Source: Escherichia virus TH58
Length of the DNA: 64,000 bases
Sequence record: MT446423.1
Direction: 5' to 3' (one strand)
The position numbers were made by a program, and so were the translations under genes. Under the pieces are notes generated by a model. The model had not been told where the DNA came from. It saw only the letters and a program-made list of their open reading frames with translations, and searched no databases. Of the stretch, positions 13,632-17,967 are shown piece by piece. How positions within the stretch are numbered: the first letter of the stretch is position 1; each line of letters starts with the position of its first letter.

Positions 13632-13864
13632 GTATAGCAATTTACATTAAATCAGAATCATGTGATTCTTATCTGTATTCCTATGATACCGGAACGTCAG
13701 AAGAGAAAATCAAAGAAGATTTAGAAAGCGACTTGGATATGTTCCGACCTATTTCTGATTATATGGTCCAAATATCTGATAGTGAAAGTCCGTCAACAGA
13801 AACATGTGTTGAAATTATTATACGAGATATCTTTAAACGATCATGGGACCGAGATGATGAGTAA
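13628..13864 (+). CDS. Small acidic hypothetical protein
   Basis: ATG overlapping upstream stop; 78 aa. Confidence 0.4.
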   Translation: MSIAIYIKSESCDSYLYSYDTGTSEEKIKEDLESDLDMFRPISDYMVQISDSESPSTETCVEIIIRDIFKRSWDRDDE

Positions 13865-14312: not shown

Positions 14313-14346
14313 GTAATAAATACCTCCTATAAACGTGGGAGGTATT

Positions 14347-14835
14347 ATGAATATATTTGAAATGCTTCGTAATGACGAAGGTCTTAGACTGTCTTTATAC
14401 AAAGACACTGAAGGCTTTTGGACGATTGGCATAGGTCATTTAGTAACAAAGAACCCGTCTTTAGCCGTAGCTAAAGCTGAACTTGACAGAATGATCGGAC
14501 GTAAATGCAATGGTACAATTACCCTTGATGAGGCTGAAAAGCTATTTAATGAAGACGTTGATAAAGCCGTTCGCGGAATCTTGGGTAATGCTAAACTTAA
14601 ACCGGTATATGATTCTTTAGATGCAGTTCGTCGATGTGCATTGGTCAATATGGTCTTCCAAATGGGTGTAGCAGGCGTCGCTGGTTTTACTAATTCTCTT
14701 CGTATGCTTCAACAGAAACGTTGGGACGAAGCGGCAGTAAATCTAGCCCAATCTAAATGGTATCGTCAGACACCTAATCGCGCGAAACGCGTAATCTCAA
14801 CATTTAAAACAGGAACTTGGAAAGCGTATATATGA
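14347..14835 (+). CDS. e: Endolysin (T4 lysozyme)
   Basis: [32 protein letters not shown]... is the T4 lysozyme N-terminus; 162 aa; GGGAGG RBS. Confidence 0.9.
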
Positions 14836-15113
14836 AAACATATAGTGAATTTTTATCAGAATCTATTCTTAACGAAGCTACTGACACATTTGCAACTAAG
14901 CTAGGTGCAGCTTTGGTTGAAGCTGAAAGTCTATTAGCACGTATTTCTGAACTTGCTAGTAAGATAGATACTCGCAAATTTGAGCGCACCAGTGATATCG
15001 TTAAGCTTGAAGCCTTGTTGCGTATGTGCGATAAACCGGAAGAAATCGCTAAGAACGGCTCGCTGATGAAACAACGTCTTGAAAAATATATTTCAGGCGC
15101 TTCAGAAAAATAG
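14832..15113 (+). CDS. Internal-protein-like ORF with capsid targeting sequence
   Basis: Starts [11 protein letters not shown]; 93 aa; ATGA overlap with e stop. Confidence 0.5.
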
Positions 15114-15114
15114 T

Positions 15115-15144
15115 GTTTACTTCCTCCAAGGACTTTGATACTAT
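15115..15144 (+). promoter_or_regulatory. Early promoter upstream of denV
   Basis: GTTTAC 15115-15120, TACTAT about 18 nt downstream. Confidence 0.45.
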
Positions 15145-15171
15145 ACATTCATCAACTACTTGGAGGAAATT

Positions 15172-15585
15172 ATGACTCGTATCAATTTAACACTTGTTTC
15201 TGAACTGTCCGACCAACATCTTATGGCTGAGTATCGTGAATTACCACGCGTATTTGGTGCAGTCCGTAAACATGTTCAAAACGGTAAATGTGTAAAGGAT
15301 TTTAAAATCTCCCCGACATTTATCTTAGGCACAGGTCATGTAACATTCTTTTACGACAAACTCGAATTTTTACGTTTACGTCAAATCGAGCTAATCGCTG
15401 AATGCTTGAAACGTGGTTTCAAAATCAAGGACACGACTGTCCAAGATATTTCCGACATCCCTGCCGAATTTCGTAATAATTATGTCCCGACCGAAGCGTC
15501 CATTGCGATAAGTCAAGCTCGTTTAGATGAAAAAATTGCTCAACGTCCTACTTGGTACAAATACTATGGTAAATCAATTTACTAA
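15172..15585 (+). CDS. denV: Endonuclease V (pyrimidine dimer DNA glycosylase)
   Basis: [34 protein letters not shown]... matches T4 endonuclease V; 137 aa. Confidence 0.9.
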
Positions 15586-15616
15586 GGAAAAAGGTTGCGA
15601 TGGTAAAGCTTAAACA

Positions 15617-15646
15617 GTTTACGCTTAAGTATTAATATGGTATAAT
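15617..15646 (+). promoter_or_regulatory. Early promoter (GTTTAC, TATAAT)
   Basis: GTTTAC 15617-15622, 18-nt spacer, TATAAT 15641-15646. Confidence 0.55.
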
Positions 15647-15676
15647 TACTCTATCAAAACAAACAAGGAAACAAAA

Positions 15677-15979
15677 ATGAAAACATATCAAGAATTTATT
15701 ACTGAAGCGCGAGTGAGTGCAGGTAAATTAGAAGCCGCTATAAATAAAAAGGCCTATTCATTTCACGATTTGTCCGATAAAGACCGTAAGAAACTTGTAA
15801 GCCTTTATATTGACAAAGAGCGTATTCTCGCTCTTCCTGGCGCTAATGAAGGTAAACAGGCCAAGCCTTTGAATGCTGTCGAAAAGAAAATTGATAACTT
15901 TGCTTCTAAATTCGGTATGTCTATGGATGACCTTCAGCAAGCGGCTATCGAAGCAGCTAAAGTAATTAAAGGTAAATAA
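15677..15979 (+). CDS. ipII: Internal protein II-like
   Basis: Starts MKTYQEFITEA (capsid targeting sequence); 100 aa as T4 IPII; follows denV. Confidence 0.65.
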   Translation: MKTYQEFITEARVSAGKLEAAINKKAYSFHDLSDKDRKKLVSLYIDKERILALPGANEGKQAKPLNAVEKKIDNFASKFGMSMDDLQQAAIEAAKVIKGK

Positions 15980-16061
15980 CAGTTTACTTTCTCCTAGAAT
16001 TGTGATAGTATATTCATAATTACTTGGATGGGTAAAATGACTCAATGAAAAAATTTTAATG

Positions 16062-16100
16062 AAGCCACACTGGTATAAGTATTACGGCAAAAATATTTAC
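16062..16100 (+). pseudogene. Remnant of a denV-like 3' end
   Basis: Encodes KPHWYKYYGKNIY, similar to the denV C-terminus [12 protein letters not shown]; no upstream coding body. Confidence 0.3.
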
Positions 16101-16153
16101 ATTCAAATAACATGGGAACAACCTGGACCTCATGATTCTATGAGGGATTCCCG

Positions 16154-16250
16154 CCAACCTGTAATAAGGTCGAGCCCAAGTGCGGTAATGGGTAAATACA
16201 GAAATGGACAATTCATGTGCCATGGAATGGCCCAAACCTAGAGAGAACAA
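16154..16250 (+). repeat. Copy A of a roughly 100 bp intergenic direct repeat
   Basis: Blocks CCAACCTGTAATAAGGTCGAGC..TGCGGTAATGGGT and ATGTGCCAYGGAATGGCCCAAACCT shared with 16651-16750. Confidence 0.6.
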
Positions 16251-16251
16251 A

Positions 16252-16581
16252 ATGAAAACATATCAAGAGTTTATCACTGAAGTTACATTATCTGCGGAAC
16301 AGAAAGCTGCTATCGAAGAAGCTAAAAATCCCAAAGTAACATATAAAGTAAATAGTAAAGGCGTTTTTGATGACTTGGTTCAAGACCCTGAATTGAAAAA
16401 AGCTCTTTCTAAAACTAATGCGTACTTTGCTCCTAAATTTAACACAGCCGGCGTACTTATTGGATTGGATGTATTCAACTCTAAAGGTGTTCTATCTAGT
16501 GCCTTTGGTTATGCCGCTAACAAAATTACCAAAGCCGCATGGGAATCCAATACCAAACAAGCTCAAAAGCCTAGAGTATAA
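16252..16581 (+). CDS. Internal-protein-like ORF with capsid targeting sequence (ipIII position)
   Basis: Starts MKTYQEFITEV; 109 aa. Confidence 0.55.
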   Translation: MKTYQEFITEVTLSAEQKAAIEEAKNPKVTYKVNSKGVFDDLVQDPELKKALSKTNAYFAPKFNTAGVLIGLDVFNSKGVLSSAFGYAANKITKAAWESNTKQAQKPRV

Positions 16582-16650
16582 TTCTTGCCTAATAAAGGGA
16601 AACGCAACCTCTCCTTATGAACGTCGAGTCCTCTAAGTGATGTACCTTTT

Positions 16651-16750
16651 CCAACCTGTAATAAGGTCGAGCGCAATGCGGTAATGGGTTTACATAGCGA
16701 GTCGAAGGACCTAACATGTGCCACGGAATGGCCCAAACCTTAAGAGAAAT
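16651..16750 (+). repeat. Copy B of the roughly 100 bp intergenic direct repeat
   Basis: See copy A; ends immediately upstream of the ATG at 16754. Confidence 0.6.
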
Positions 16751-16753
16751 AAT

Positions 16754-17293
16754 ATGAGAACATTTTTAACTGGACCTTATCTATCCCTGATGAATGCTTT
16801 TACACACCATTCTGATGCTAGAGTAGAAGAAATTTGTAAGAACGGTTATGTCCCGCCGTTTGAAGACGTACTCAAGCAGTACTGTACACTTCGTTTAGAC
16901 GGCGGCCGACAATCAGGTAAATCAATTGCTGTGACTAACTTTGCTGCTAATTGGCTGTATGACGGTGGAACAGTTATTGTTCTTTCTAATACTTCAGCTT
17001 ATTCTAAAATTTCTGCCTGCAACATTAAAAAAGAATTTTCTCGTTATTCTAGCGATGATATTCGATTCCGTTTATTTACTGATTCTGTCCGTAGTTTTAT
17101 TGGCAATGAAGGTTCTAAATTCCGTGGATTAACGCTTTCTCGTATTCTGTATATAATTGACGAGCCTATTAAAGCTCCTGATATGGATAAGATTTACAAT
17201 GTCCATATTAAATCAGTACAGCACTGCTGCAAAAGCAAATATTGCATCGGCGGTAATGCTCGTCCTCAATTTTTTGTGATTGGAATGCAATGA
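16754..17293 (+). CDS. Small P-loop NTPase
   Basis: Walker A LDGGRQSGKS and Walker B-like ILYIIDE; 179 aa. Confidence 0.5.
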   Translation: MRTFLTGPYLSLMNAFTHHSDARVEEICKNGYVPPFEDVLKQYCTLRLDGGRQSGKSIAVTNFAANWLYDGGTVIVLSNTSAYSKISACNIKKEFSRYSSDDIRFRLFTDSVRSFIGNEGSKFRGLTLSRILYIIDEPIKAPDMDKIYNVHIKSVQHCCKSKYCIGGNARPQFFVIGMQ

Positions 17294-17598
17294 TGACAAC
17301 TATTGAAGTTTTTGAATATTGTTATAATAGCCCAGTATGCAATAAAAGGGCCCTTGTAGAAAATTACGAGATTTACCATTTTAAACCTAAACGATATCGT
17401 TTGACTAAAGGCCCGTTCGCAGGGCAGCAGGTTCTTTGTACTGCTCCTAATGAGCGGTTGATGACTAGTATTCCGCATTTCAAAATGGAATTTATTGATG
17501 GGCCATTTAAGGGATTAATCACTCAAAGTTTAATGGCGTTTAATTCCGACCCATTTTTGATTAAAGAAAAAACTTGGATAAATTTATTTTCTAATTGA
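17290..17598 (+). CDS. Hypothetical protein
   Basis: 102 aa; ATGA overlap. Confidence 0.45.
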   Translation: MMTTIEVFEYCYNSPVCNKRALVENYEIYHFKPKRYRLTKGPFAGQQVLCTAPNERLMTSIPHFKMEFIDGPFKGLITQSLMAFNSDPFLIKEKTWINLFSN

Positions 17599-17604
17599 GG
17601 TTAT

Positions 17605-17967
17605 ATGAAAGCATATCAAATTCTTGAAGGTGCACATAAAGGCACTATTTATTTTGAAGACGGTACTCAAGCCCGGATTATCGTCTCTAAGACTTTTAAA
17701 GAAGACGCTATTGTAGACCCGGAAATTTTCTACGGTTTGAATGCCCGTGAAATTGAAATTGAACATCAACCTAAAGTTAAAATTGAAGGTGGTCAACACC
17801 TGAACGTTAACGTTCTGCGTCGTGAAACTCTGGAAGATGCAGTTAAGCATCCAGAAAAATATCCGCAGCTGACCATCCGTGTATCCGGTTATGCGGTTCG
17901 CTTTAACTCTCTGACTCCAGAACAGCAGCGCGACGTTATCGCTCGTACCTTTACTGAGAGTCTATAG
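17605..17967 (+). CDS. Autonomous glycyl radical cofactor (GrcA/YfiD-like; T4 Y06I-type)
   Basis: C-terminal glycyl-radical motif [29 protein letters not shown]; 120 aa. Confidence 0.85.

What the first reader, a model, noticed from the sequence alone, without database searches (positions are those of the whole stretch)
16062..16752. denV 3'-end remnant plus a duplicated roughly 100-bp element placed directly upstream of two start codons
A 13-codon fragment resembling the denV C-terminus lies 480 bp downstream of the real denV without a gene body. It is followed by copy A of a two-block repeat (16154-16250) ending at the ipIII-like ATG; copy B (16651-16750) ends at the ATG of a P-loop ORF. 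The repeat is not coding in any consistent frame and is not a canonical T4 promoter; it may be a shared leader/regulatory RNA element or a recombination scar marking module boundaries.
Basis: seen in the sequence. Interest (0 to 1): 0.5.

Follow-up and report, generated by a model that had tools for sequence, protein, structure and literature searches.

The report
Conserved structured phage RNA, duplicated
The "100-bp repeat" is two alleles of a folded RNA element apparently not yet described. It occurs only in lytic phages, including T4 itself, where the reference annotation reads it as protein-coding, and the second copy arrived by recombination together with a gutted second denV gene.

Summary
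Two copies of one element lie directly upstream of two start codons. A covariance model finds exactly two hits in the window: 16150-16196 (67 bits) and 16647-16692 (61 bits).

The "denV fragment" is larger than reported. It is an internally deleted second denV: an early promoter, the first two codons and the last 21 codons of a ZN18-type allele.

The repeat is neither a scar nor a promoter. It belongs to an RNA family found in about 1000 phage records. These include T4-like phages with T4 itself, Vequintavirus, N4-like Klebsiella phage Pylas, Pseudomonas phage pf16 and a jumbo-phage contig. It is absent from 5,426 E. coli genomes and gave only three chance-like pattern hits in 185,579 bacterial and archaeal species genomes.

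Compensatory base changes support a 5' hairpin P1, a three-way junction (P2/PA/PB) and, in T4-likes, a pseudoknot. Rfam 15 has no match. Membership of HDV-like/theta ribozymes, mimicry of 23S rRNA, and protein coding were tested and rejected.

Outside T4-likes it usually sits in tRNA gene arrays, in several lineages before its own terminator. In T4-likes it is the leader of vs.8 or of an internal-protein gene.

Function is unresolved. My best guess is an autonomous partner-binding RNA module.

The parts
15982..16012 (+). Early-promoter-like sequence (GTTTAC...N17...TAGTAT) of the deleted second denV. It is a homologue of the resident denV promoter at 15115-15145.
   Evidence: Direct repeat D5, 81% over 31 nt. 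Alignment with the denV 5' regions of the window, L007 and L010. Fits the T4/PST PeSL promoter consensus TTTACW-N17-TAYWAT (PMC4122927).
16037..16043 (+). ATGACTC: start codon and codon 2 of the deleted denV copy. The deletion junction follows, at a GACTC(G/A) microhomology.
   Evidence: Alignment A4: identical to the denV 5' ends up to ATGACTC, then a jump. L007 has ACGACTCGATGAAAAAATT at the corresponding 3' site.
16044..16106 (+). denV 3' remnant: the last 21 codons of a ZN18-type denV allele, with the stop mutated from TAA to CAA.
   Evidence: Window 16036-16260 is 96% identical over 225 nt to L007, which carries the full-length denV ending ...DEKILMKPHWYKYYGKNIYI*.
16114..16152 (+). Copy A, P1. 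Outer helix GGGAA 16114-16118 x TTCCC 16148-16152. Inner hairpin CCTCAT 16128-16133 x ATGAGG 16140-16145. The 5' bulge CAACCTGGA holds the putative pseudoknot strand CTG 16123-16125. This is the T4-type allele.
   Evidence: Read from the sequence. The P1 outer helix covaries between lineages: GGGAA/TTCCC, AAAGG/CCTTT, AAAGC/GCTTT, GGGG/CCCC, GGAAC/GTTCC, GAGTG/CACTC, GCGT/ACGC, GCAA/TTGC, GTGC/GCAC. Column 5.52 in A3 shows GC:9, CG:4, AU:1.
16153..16193 (+). Copy A, three-way-junction core. P2 GCCA 16153-16156 x T16189 (G16190 bulged) GGT 16191-16193. PA ACCT-GTAATA-AGGT 16157-16170. J CGA. PB G16174.C16183 and C16175.G16182. J GGTAA 16184-16188.
   Evidence: CM R1 hit 16150-16196, 67.4 bits. 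Covariation counts on A2.
16194..16251 (+). Copy A, T4-like 3' extension. The tail holds the putative pseudoknot strand CAG 16199-16201 and the SD-like ATGGA. An 8-codon uORF runs from ATG 16215 to TAG 16239-16241. Hairpin GCCA 16219-16222 / TGGC 16228-16231. The SD GAGAGAA precedes ATG 16252.
   Evidence: Sequence. Homology with type-2 columns in which the pseudoknot and P5 covary. For copy A the pseudoknot assignment is an inference.
16252..16581 (+). Internal-protein-like gene, 109 aa, N-terminus MKTYQEFITE. Its first 34 nt repeat the start of the IP gene at 15677.
   Evidence: ORF list. Repeat D1, 94%. phrog_3966, and a weak match to internal head protein phrog_2667.
16594..16649 (+). Copy B, P1 of the Mosigvirus-type allele. 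Outer helix AAAGG 16594-16598 x CCTTT 16645-16649. The 5' bulge holds the pseudoknot strand CGC 16603-16605. The inner part is a long irregular hairpin.
   Evidence: Alignment A3 and pair counts. RNAalifold independently finds the inner helices and the long-range helix.
16650..16689 (+). Copy B, three-way-junction core. P2 TCCA 16650-16653 x T16685 (G16686 bulged) GGT. PA 16654-16667. PB G16671.C16679 and C16672.G16678. GGTAA 16680-16684.
   Evidence: CM R1 hit 16647-16692, 61.4 bits. Covariation counts.
16690..16753 (+). Copy B, 3' extension. P5 ACAT 16692-16695 x ATGT 16716-16719. Pseudoknot strand GCG 16697-16699. SD-like AAGGA 16705-16709. A 13-codon uORF runs from ATG 16716 to TGA 16755-16757, overlapping the vs.8 ATG. 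Hairpin GCCA 16720-16723 / TGGC 16729-16732.
   Evidence: Pseudoknot columns: 10.108 CG:13 UA:1; 11.107 CG:10 AU:3 GC:2; 12.106 GC:9 CG:5.
16754..17293 (+). vs.8 homologue, a P-loop protein of 179 aa and unknown function. This is the gene that the element precedes in nearly all T4-like phages.
   Evidence: phrog_1488, E 6e-78. Annotated vs.8 in relatives. tblastn finds homologues only in T4-like loci.

Best explanation
SHOWN
- The repeat is two diverged alleles of a phage-specific structured RNA domain of about 100-140 nt.
- Its fold has a variable 5' hairpin P1, then a three-way junction made of P2, a 4-bp hairpin PA with a G-U-R-R-N-A hexaloop, and a mini-hairpin PB. Two short junctions, C-N-A and GGUAA, are fixed in every retrieved member, although the search patterns imposed them.
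- In T4-likes a pseudoknot links a bulge of P1 to the tail 3' of P2.
- Copy B is the resident allele at the family's canonical T4-like site, the leader of vs.8.
- Copy A is a T4/ZN18-type allele imported as a cassette: early promoter, internally deleted denV, then the RNA.

INFERRED, ORIGIN
The cassette's right junction lies at AAAATGA(A/G)AACAT, a sequence shared by the starts of vs.8 and of internal-protein genes. Copy A therefore now leads an internal-protein gene.

INFERRED, MECHANISM
- The conserved core is an autonomous folded module. It works wherever it is transcribed, by binding a conserved partner: a host macromolecule, or a small ligand shared by enterobacterial and Pseudomonas hosts.
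- In other phage families it is made as a stand-alone stable RNA with the tRNA arrays.
- In T4-likes it is fused to the initiation region of the next ORF through a lineage-specific extension: a P5 helix that pairs the uORF AUG, plus a hairpin. The fold can thereby also influence translation of that ORF.
For: Structure.
- On 55 distinct cores, 90.1% of cells pair, against 28-41% when the partners are slid.
- There are 99 double-sided changes, against 36.7 +/- 4.1 in shuffles (0/500 shuffles reach the observed value).
- P2 pairs 5.43, 6.42 and 7.40 have 3-5 pair types with almost no mismatches. PB pair 26.33 shows CG:44, UA:7, GC:2. The P2 and PB columns were not fixed by the search patterns.
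- G.U pairs occur on the + strand only.
- T4-like pseudoknot, P1 and P5. RNAalifold finds the 10-12 x 106-108 helix by itself.

Distribution.
- About 1000 phage records carry it.
- Pattern scans give 48 and then 112 IMG/VR loci. Some 71 of all loci fetched, from several unrelated phage groups, carry a strong CM hit of 41-71 bits.
- Carriers identified: T4, Vequintavirus, Pylas, pf16.

Autonomy.
- Outside T4-likes it lies in or next to tRNA arrays on the same strand.
- It is followed by its own intrinsic terminator in the L037, L150, L214, L217 and pf16 lineages.
- Downstream genes differ between families. vs.8 homologues are confined to T4-likes.
- In some T4-likes an IP gene is inserted between the RNA and vs.8.

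Origin of the duplication. About 3% of records hold two places.
Against: - No partner is known and no expression or end-mapping data were available.
- Single-sequence folding gives no thermodynamic signal: z = +0.4 and +1.8.
- Homologues were retrieved with sequence patterns. The apparent invariance of CCU, U13, AAGG, C22, A24-G25 and GGUAA is therefore partly ascertainment.
- The cross-family pseudoknot was assigned by eye. A per-sequence complementarity test has no power (median p 0.53).
- In every T4-like lineage the element sits less than 45 nt from a start codon. This fits a purely cis-acting leader equally well.
- A compact pseudoknotted junction fold is more typical of aptamers and ribozymes than of protein sponges.
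Confidence: 0.5

Rival explanations
1. Riboswitch-like cis regulator. The core is an aptamer for a metabolite or ion. Folding of P2 and the pseudoknot decides whether the P5 helix hides the uORF AUG and SD in T4-likes, or whether a downstream terminator forms in other phages. This sets expression of the next gene.
For: - The fold is compact, with a junction plus a pseudoknot. The junction nucleotides are fixed in every retrieved member, although the search patterns imposed them, and the periphery is variable.
- In T4-likes the element is always immediately upstream of a start codon. P5 pairs the AUG at 16716-16718 and shows one compensatory change.
- Two kinds of 3' context exist: a translation initiation region, or an intrinsic terminator.
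- Tandem copies occur in L153 and L155.
Against: - Downstream genes are unrelated between families, and in tRNA arrays there is often no nearby ORF.
- The terminators lie roughly 8-15 nt or more beyond the fold and do not overlap it, so no mutually exclusive pairing is evident (sequences).
- In Vequintavirus a sigma-70 promoter separates the element from the next gene.
- The element is absent from bacterial genomes, unlike every known riboswitch class.
Confidence: 0.25
2. A new class of self-cleaving ribozyme, or another RNA-processing signal, that cuts polycistronic early or tRNA-array transcripts. It would leave a structured end on the neighbouring RNA.
For: - The helix order P1(5')-PK(5')-hairpin-P1(3')-[P2 domain]-PK(3') is the nested double-pseudoknot topology of HDV-like ribozymes.
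- HDV-like 'theta' ribozymes are known to sit next to phage tRNAs (PMC10879173).
- The genetic contexts are varied and the element is phage-only.
- In L214 P1 starts 5 nt after a tRNA-Ser CCA end.
Against: - The defining HDV-like core is not met. There is no cytosine-bearing J4/2, and the linker is 0 nt in the Vequintavirus and N4-like members.
- There are no C residues in the L3 equivalent and no J1/4 GG to form P1.1.
- C34 is base-paired and N23 is unpaired and variable.
- Distance to the nearest upstream tRNA ranges from 5 to more than 700 nt, whereas theta ribozymes lie within +/-5 nt.
- No Rfam ribozyme model matches.
Confidence: 0.12
3. A DNA-level feature only: a recombination linker or scar like the PeSL promoter-terminator cassettes, or an internal promoter, conserved because it mediates module shuffling.
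For: - The element lies in the hyperplastic internal-protein region, and here it flanks a shuffled cassette (PMC2839356 and PMC4122927).
- Type-2 alleles contain a GTTTACA-N17-TAACAT promoter-like match at 16689-16717.
Against: - The helices covary with strand-specific G.U pairs.
- The orientation always follows the flanking genes and tRNAs.
- The same core is kept in phage families that have no T4-type promoters or IP genes.
- PeSLs are an early promoter plus one simple stem-loop, which this element is not.
Confidence: 0.05
4. Protein-coding: the N-terminal extension of vs.8, as annotated in the T4 RefSeq record (CDS 64253..64912), or a conserved small ORF.
For: - In T4 the frame is open from an ATG in P1 through the whole element into vs.8.
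- In about 9 of 26 lineages the AUG of the 3' block is in frame with the downstream ORF, which gives a 12-13 aa extension.
Against: - An in-frame stop lies inside or after the core in 24 of 26 T4-like lineages.
- The two window copies differ by indels of -1 and +5 nt.
- The minus-strand ORFs change frame between the copies.
- The identical core occurs in non-coding tRNA arrays of unrelated phages.
- L080-type alleles lose one nucleotide in the 3' hairpin.
Confidence: 0.03

Closest known systems
HDV-like / theta ribozymes (PMC10879173)
   Same: Small pseudoknotted RNAs carried by tailed phages and often associated with phage tRNA genes. The order of helix strands matches the nested double-pseudoknot topology.
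   Different: - There is no catalytic cytosine junction and no P1.1.
- P1 is 3-6 bp with a variable first base.
- The conserved nucleotides lie in a three-way junction that would correspond to the dispensable P4.
- The distance to tRNAs is not fixed.
- The hosts are Enterobacterales and Pseudomonas rather than Bacteroidota and Bacillota.
- There is no Rfam hit.
GOLLD / ROOL ornate RNAs (PMC12286853)
   Same: Conserved, complex-folded RNAs of unknown function. That they occur in phages or prophages next to tRNA genes is from my own knowledge; the paper was listed but not read for this point.
   Different: Those are 400-800 nt RNAs that self-assemble into cages and occur in Bacillota and rumen organisms. 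This element is about 100-140 nt, occurs in virulent phages of Gammaproteobacteria, and shows no sequence or model similarity to them.
PeSL promoter-terminator cassettes of T4-type phages (PMC2839356, PMC4122927)
   Same: Short conserved non-coding sequences at module boundaries in hyperplastic regions. The cassette carrying copy A is itself bounded by a PeSL-type early promoter.
   Different: A PeSL is an early promoter plus one stem-loop and acts at the DNA and transcription level. The element has no promoter consensus in type-1 alleles, has a multi-helix covarying RNA fold, and occurs far outside the T4 superfamily.
Riboswitch aptamers
   Same: Size, junction-plus-pseudoknot architecture, junction nucleotides fixed in every retrieved member (though imposed by the search patterns), variable peripheral helices, and a position in a 5' leader in T4-likes.
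   Different: No bacterial members, no consistent regulated gene, no overlapping expression platform outside T4-likes, and an unknown ligand.
T4 translational operators (gene 32 pseudoknot, gp43 and RegA operators; from my own knowledge)
   Same: Structured RNA in T4 early or middle leaders close to initiation codons.
   Different: Those are specific to one gene and to the T4 family and are bound by phage proteins. This element is shared with phage families that lack those proteins.

Membership tests
Any Rfam 15 family | A covariance-model match at or near the gathering score | tested here: not met
   - Permissive scan of 15500-17500 with E up to 10: only four noise hits, of 13-22 bits.
- Whole window at gathering score: two tRNAs only.
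- Seven loci from other lineages with E up to 1: nothing over the element.
HDV-like / theta ribozymes | Nested double-pseudoknot strand order: P1-P2-P3-P1'-P4-P2' | tested here: met
   The observed order is P1(5')-PK(5')-hairpin-P1(3')-[P2 domain]-PK(3'). It is shown by covariation in T4-likes and assigned by eye elsewhere.
HDV-like / theta ribozymes | A catalytic cytosine as the first nucleotide of J4/2 | tested here: not met
   The linker between the P2 3' strand and the pseudoknot 3' strand is 0 nt in the Vequintavirus and N4-like members, U in the L024 group and UUUACAU in T4 type 2. The only conserved C nearby, C34, pairs with G25 (GC in 53/55).
HDV-like / theta ribozymes | P1.1: two G-C pairs between J1/4 and L3 | tested here: not met
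   No J1/4 exists, because the P1 3' strand abuts the P2 5' strand. The hairpin loops carry no conserved CC.
HDV-like / theta ribozymes | Cleavage site within +/-5 nt of a tRNA 3' end (theta subfamily; PMC10879173) | tested here: not met
   Spacing is 5 nt in L214 but about 23 nt in L170, about 120 nt in L184, about 310 nt in L024 and about 700 nt in Pylas. In Vequintavirus the tRNAs are downstream.
HDV-like / theta ribozymes | Self-cleavage activity | not testable with these tools
   This needs in vitro transcription and cleavage assays.
PeSL cassette | An early sigma-70-type promoter (TTTACW-N17-TAYWAT) joined to a single stem-loop terminator | tested here: not met
   The element itself is a multi-helix fold and type-1 alleles have no promoter match. 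PeSL-like promoters do flank the cassette, at 15115-15145, 15618-15646 and 15982-16012.
Riboswitch | A conserved aptamer in the 5' UTR of a consistent set of genes, with an expression platform that overlaps the aptamer | tested here: inconclusive
   In T4-likes it is met in form: the leader of vs.8 or an IP gene, with P5 pairing the uORF AUG. Elsewhere it is not met: downstream genes vary and the terminators do not overlap the fold.
Riboswitch | Specific ligand binding | not testable with these tools
   This needs in-line probing or ITC.
23S rRNA GTPase-centre (H44) mimic | Similarity in sequence and structure to 23S nt about 1087-1140 beyond chance | tested here: not met
   The PA loop GUAAUA and GGUCGAG do occur in 23S. 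However, CM R1 finds nothing in the rrn operon with E up to 10, and Smith-Waterman scores do not exceed shuffles; the best alignments fall elsewhere.
vs.8 coding sequence (T4 RefSeq CDS 64253..64912) | A reading frame conserved through the element in relatives | tested here: not met
   The frame is open in 2 of 26 lineages only, and there are indels between the copies.
tRNA / tmRNA | A cloverleaf or tRNA-like domain detected by ARAGORN or Rfam | tested here: not met
   No tRNA or tmRNA call overlaps the element in any locus.

The most novel reading that the evidence does not exclude
The element is a new functional RNA class confined to virulent phages. It would be either a new self-cleaving ribozyme or a stand-alone aptamer or decoy that captures a host factor or signalling molecule during takeover. 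It has sat unnoticed in phage T4, annotated there as the first 37 codons of vs.8.
Probability: 0.3. Interest if true: 0.88.

Novelty: new variant of a known kind. Interest (0 to 1): 0.68.

Why it matters
T4 is the reference lytic phage, yet this element has no Rfam family and I found no mention of it in the searchable literature. RefSeq annotates it as coding sequence.

It is kept, with identical junction nucleotides in every member retrieved, in at least five unrelated groups of virulent phages that infect Enterobacterales and Pseudomonas. It is absent from bacterial genomes. That pattern points to something these phages need during infection, such as takeover, RNA processing or counter-defence.

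The element is small, has a defined covarying fold, and sits in a genetically tractable phage. The open question of what phage structured RNAs near tRNA arrays do therefore becomes directly testable.

On the practical side, the vs.8 start should be re-annotated in T4-like genomes.

The local duplication and the deleted denV are ordinary hyperplastic-region recombination.

Tried and rejected
- Rfam: three scans found nothing over the element.
- 23S rRNA H44/H42 mimicry, a lead from memory. The sequence was confirmed. The CM search of the rrn operon and Smith-Waterman against shuffles were negative, so I rejected it.
- HDV-like/theta ribozyme membership. The topology matches but the catalytic C, P1.1 and the tRNA spacing fail.
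- Protein coding: rejected for the core.
- A conserved downstream gene or protein partner. Downstream ORFs differ and vs.8, vs.7, vs.6 and denV homologues occur only in T4-like loci.
- A per-sequence statistical test of the cross-family pseudoknot had no power. I therefore claim the pseudoknot as tested only in T4-likes.
- Single-sequence MFE gave no signal on either strand.
- An H43-type rRNA mimic in the window: absent.
- Literature searches on denV/vs.8, on exact sequence strings, on phage ncRNA near tRNAs and on candidate-RNA catalogues gave no description of this element. The supplement of the 10,006-candidate catalogue (PMC10690425) is not held, so prior listing there cannot be excluded.
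- The loose pattern AAGGTCGAGN{5,9}CGGTAA returned mostly chance hits in coding regions. I filtered these out by eye and later by the CM.
Full report
CONTEXT

The window is a T4-like (Tevenvirinae) genome. Escherichia phage SF (MH359124) matches the region at 97% over its full length.

The gene order on the + strand is:
- nudE at 13782
- e at 14335
- an internal-protein (IP) gene at 14817-15113
- denV at 15160-15585
- an IP gene at 15677-15979
- the flagged region
- an IP-like gene at 16252-16581
- vs.8 at 16754-17293
- vs.7
- vs.6

OBSERVATION: THE REPEAT

The repeat is real. Three blocks are 91-100% identical, about 500 nt apart. The two copies are 79% identical over 179 aligned columns, with indels of -1 and +5 nt in the middle. 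The 18-mer ACCTGTAATAAGGTCGAG occurs twice against 0.03 expected.

A covariance model (R1) built from 55 distinct homologues finds exactly two hits in 64 kb, both strands searched: 16150-16196 (67.4 bits) and 16647-16692 (61.4 bits). Everything else scores 9 bits or less.

OBSERVATION: THE denV FRAGMENT

The "denV C-terminal fragment" is also real, but it is part of something larger.

- Window 16036-16260 is 96% identical to a ZN18-type phage (L007). There a full-length denV ends ...DEKILMKPHWYKYYGKNIYI* and is followed directly by the element and by vs.8.
- Upstream, 15982-16043 reproduces the early promoter, the SD and ATGACTC of denV.
- The two pieces are joined at a GACTC(G/A) microhomology.

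So the remnant is an internally deleted second denV: a promoter, 2 codons, then 21 terminal codons with the stop mutated.

The cassette's right edge, as I read it, is AAAATGA(A/G)AACAT. The starts of vs.8 and of IP genes share this sequence. That explains why copy A ends exactly at the ATG of an IP gene.

This is the kind of modular shuffling described for hyperplastic regions of T4-type phages (PMC2839356; PMC4122927). About 3% of phage records that carry the element have two places, and SF and NHEP36 share this arrangement.

WHAT THE ELEMENT IS: DISTRIBUTION

The element is far from local. BLAST finds it in about 1000 phage records.

- In T4 it lies between denV and vs.8 (sequence).
- A 39-nt core is 87-92% identical in Vequintavirus (rV5-like) phages.

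Pattern scans of IMG/VR and a model search gave strong hits of 41-71 bits in some 71 loci. These come from:
- many T4-like genera
- Vequintavirus
- the N4-like Klebsiella phages Pylas and KpCHEMY26
- Pseudomonas phage pf16
- a 360-kb contig
- several unclassified contigs

It is absent from bacteria:
- Representatives of 185,579 species gave three chance-like hits in coding-looking GC-rich sequence.
- 5,426 complete E. coli genomes gave none.

WHAT THE ELEMENT IS: STRUCTURE OF THE CORE

On the 47-column core alignment (A2) I proposed the following fold:
- P2: 4-5 bp with a bulged purine
- PA: ACCU-GURRNA-AGGU
- a junction C-N-A
- PB: a mini-hairpin
- a junction GGUAA

The counts are:
- 90.1% of cells pair, against 28-41% with slid partners.
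- There are 99 double-sided changes, against 36.7 +/- 4.1 in shuffles.
- The covariation score is 0.419 against 0.116.
- The three inner P2 pairs show CG/GC/AU/UA/UG/GU with one mismatch in 165 cells.
- PB pair 26.33 shows CG/UA/GC.

The P2 and PB columns were not constrained by the search patterns, so this is not ascertainment. RNAalifold independently recovers PA and PB. G.U pairs occur on the + strand only, and the element always points the same way as the neighbouring genes and tRNAs. The structure is therefore an RNA structure.

WHAT THE ELEMENT IS: P1, THE PSEUDOKNOT AND THE 3' EXTENSION

A 5' hairpin P1 precedes P2 in every lineage, and its outer helix covaries freely (column 5.52).

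In T4-like "type 2" alleles a long-range helix joins a 5' bulge of P1 to the tail after P2. It is a pseudoknot relative to P1, and it covaries: 11.107 CG/AU/GC and 12.106 GC/CG. RNAalifold finds it unaided.

Equivalent complementarities exist in the other lineages, with compensations inside lineages:
- L024 group: GGGU/ACCC against GGGAG/CUCCC
- L214 ACCG/CGGU against pf16 ACUG/CAGU
- Vequintavirus: CCAG/CUGG against GUGAGGG/CCCUUAC

A per-sequence test cannot distinguish these from chance. Outside T4-likes I therefore treat the pseudoknot as probable, not shown.

T4-likes add a 3' extension:
- A helix P5 pairs an AUG.
- An SD-like (A/U)GGA precedes it.
- A hairpin GCCA-NGGAA-UGGC follows.
- There is a short uORF. 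In the window it has 8 codons in copy A. In copy B it has 13 codons, and its TGA overlaps the vs.8 ATG.

NOT CODING

T4 RefSeq annotates vs.8 as 64253..64912. That CDS runs through the whole element. The frame is open across the core in only 2 of 26 T4-like lineages. The two window copies are frameshifted relative to each other. The same core sits in non-coding tRNA arrays in other phages.

CONTEXT ELSEWHERE

In most non-T4 lineages the element lies within about 1.7 kb of tRNA genes on the same strand. These are Vequintavirus, the Pylas group, the L024 group, L214, L170, L184, L208, L150, pf16 and L185.

In L037, L150, L214, L217 and pf16 it is followed, after a short A/U-rich spacer (longer in L217), by an intrinsic terminator. 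That is the look of a stand-alone small RNA or the 3' end of a tRNA operon.

Downstream genes differ between families. vs.8 homologues are confined to T4-likes.

HOW IT LIKELY WORKS

Shown:
- A conserved, strand-specific, multi-helix RNA fold that is restricted to phages and has moved horizontally between phage groups.
- The duplication here arose by recombination.

Inferred:
- The core is kept, with the same junction nucleotides in every member retrieved, in unrelated phages of different hosts and in different transcript contexts.
- It is therefore most simply an autonomous module that recognises a conserved partner, either a host macromolecule or a small molecule.
- In T4-likes it has been wired to the initiation region of the next ORF.
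- I put this at 0.5.

Rivals:
- A riboswitch-like cis regulator (0.25). It fits T4-likes but not the other families.
- A new self-cleaving ribozyme or processing signal (0.12). The strand order equals the HDV-like nested double pseudoknot, and theta ribozymes flank phage tRNAs (PMC10879173). But the catalytic-C junction, P1.1 and the tRNA spacing all fail.
- A DNA-level linker or promoter (0.05).
- Coding (0.03).

COMPARISON AND NOVELTY

No Rfam 15 family matches. A resemblance to 23S rRNA H44 (GUAAUA loop, GGUCGAG) that I recalled was checked and is not above chance. Literature and sequence-string searches found no description. A large catalogue of candidate phage RNAs could not be checked because its supplement is not held.

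I rate it a new variant within the known kind "phage structured non-coding RNA", with a 0.3 chance that it is a genuinely new functional class.

The recombination story and the denV pseudogene are ordinary. The RNA family is the interesting part.

Noticed in passing
T4 RefSeq NC_000866.4 64253..64912 (locus L232 454-1113): vs.8 is annotated with a 37-codon N-terminal extension that runs through the structured RNA. The conserved start is the ATG equivalent to window 16754 (MRTFLTGPY...). T4-like annotations probably need correcting.
   Followed up: yes
L214 3351-3396 (IMGVR_UViG_3300042010_000030, inside a 10-tRNA array): The sequence GGUGGGCUUAGAAGCAGCCAUCCUUUAAAGA nearly copies helix 43 of 23S rRNA, the L11/thiostrepton loop of the GTPase-associated centre. 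It matches the LSU rRNA model at E 5e-4. This is a possible rRNA-fragment mimic encoded by a phage. No such sequence is in the window.
   Followed up: partly
window 17605-17967: vs.6 encodes a GrcA/YfiD-like autonomous glycyl-radical cofactor (PF01228, E 2e-18), and T4 RefSeq annotates it as such. Its start ATGAAAGCATATCAA resembles the IP-gene starts (repeat D3).
   Followed up: partly
L153 5093-5250 and L155 9021-9179 (T4-like contigs of 172-178 kb): Two tandem copies of the RNA lie about 110 nt apart. The second copy has a compensated PA stem in L153 (GCCU/AGGC) and lacks junction nucleotide N23 in both.
   Followed up: partly
L087/L231 (Klebsiella phage Pylas 66,770-67,780) and relatives L079, L132, L154, L158, L195: A 1-kb non-coding stretch follows the tRNA array. 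It holds the element between copies of a repeated motif of about 22 nt, (A)GTGCTCTTTCCGTTGTGGTGA, whose GCTCTTT core recalls boxA. It also holds a weak tmRNA-like T-arm hit at L087 10995-11130.
   Followed up: no
window 16689-16717: A promoter-like match, TTTACA-N17-TAACAT, is embedded in the 3' extension of copy B. The GTTTACAT part is conserved in type-2 alleles. It overlaps helix P5, so promoter and RNA-structure constraints cannot be separated here.
   Followed up: partly
window 15674-15707, 16249-16282, 17605-17619: The starts of the IP genes (AAAATGAAAACATATCAAGA...) are near-identical repeats, and the vs.8 start differs by one base in 13. These short shared starts probably serve as crossover points for swapping IP cassettes.
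   Followed up: partly
PA hexaloop, window 16161-16166 and 16658-16663, and alignment A2 columns 12-17: Loop positions 2-4 are always UAA, UAG or UGA across lineages, and never UGG. This is most simply a U-turn/GNRA-like loop (UNR), and the sample is too small to tell it from a stop-codon-like signal.
   Followed up: no
L073 1200-1253 (35-kb IMG/VR contig): There is a weak model hit (19.9 bits, E 0.001) directly after a sigma-70 promoter. It keeps AAGGUCGAG-N9-GGUAAUGGG but lacks P1, the P2 5' strand and the PA 5' strand. It may be a degenerate or truncated relative.
   Followed up: no
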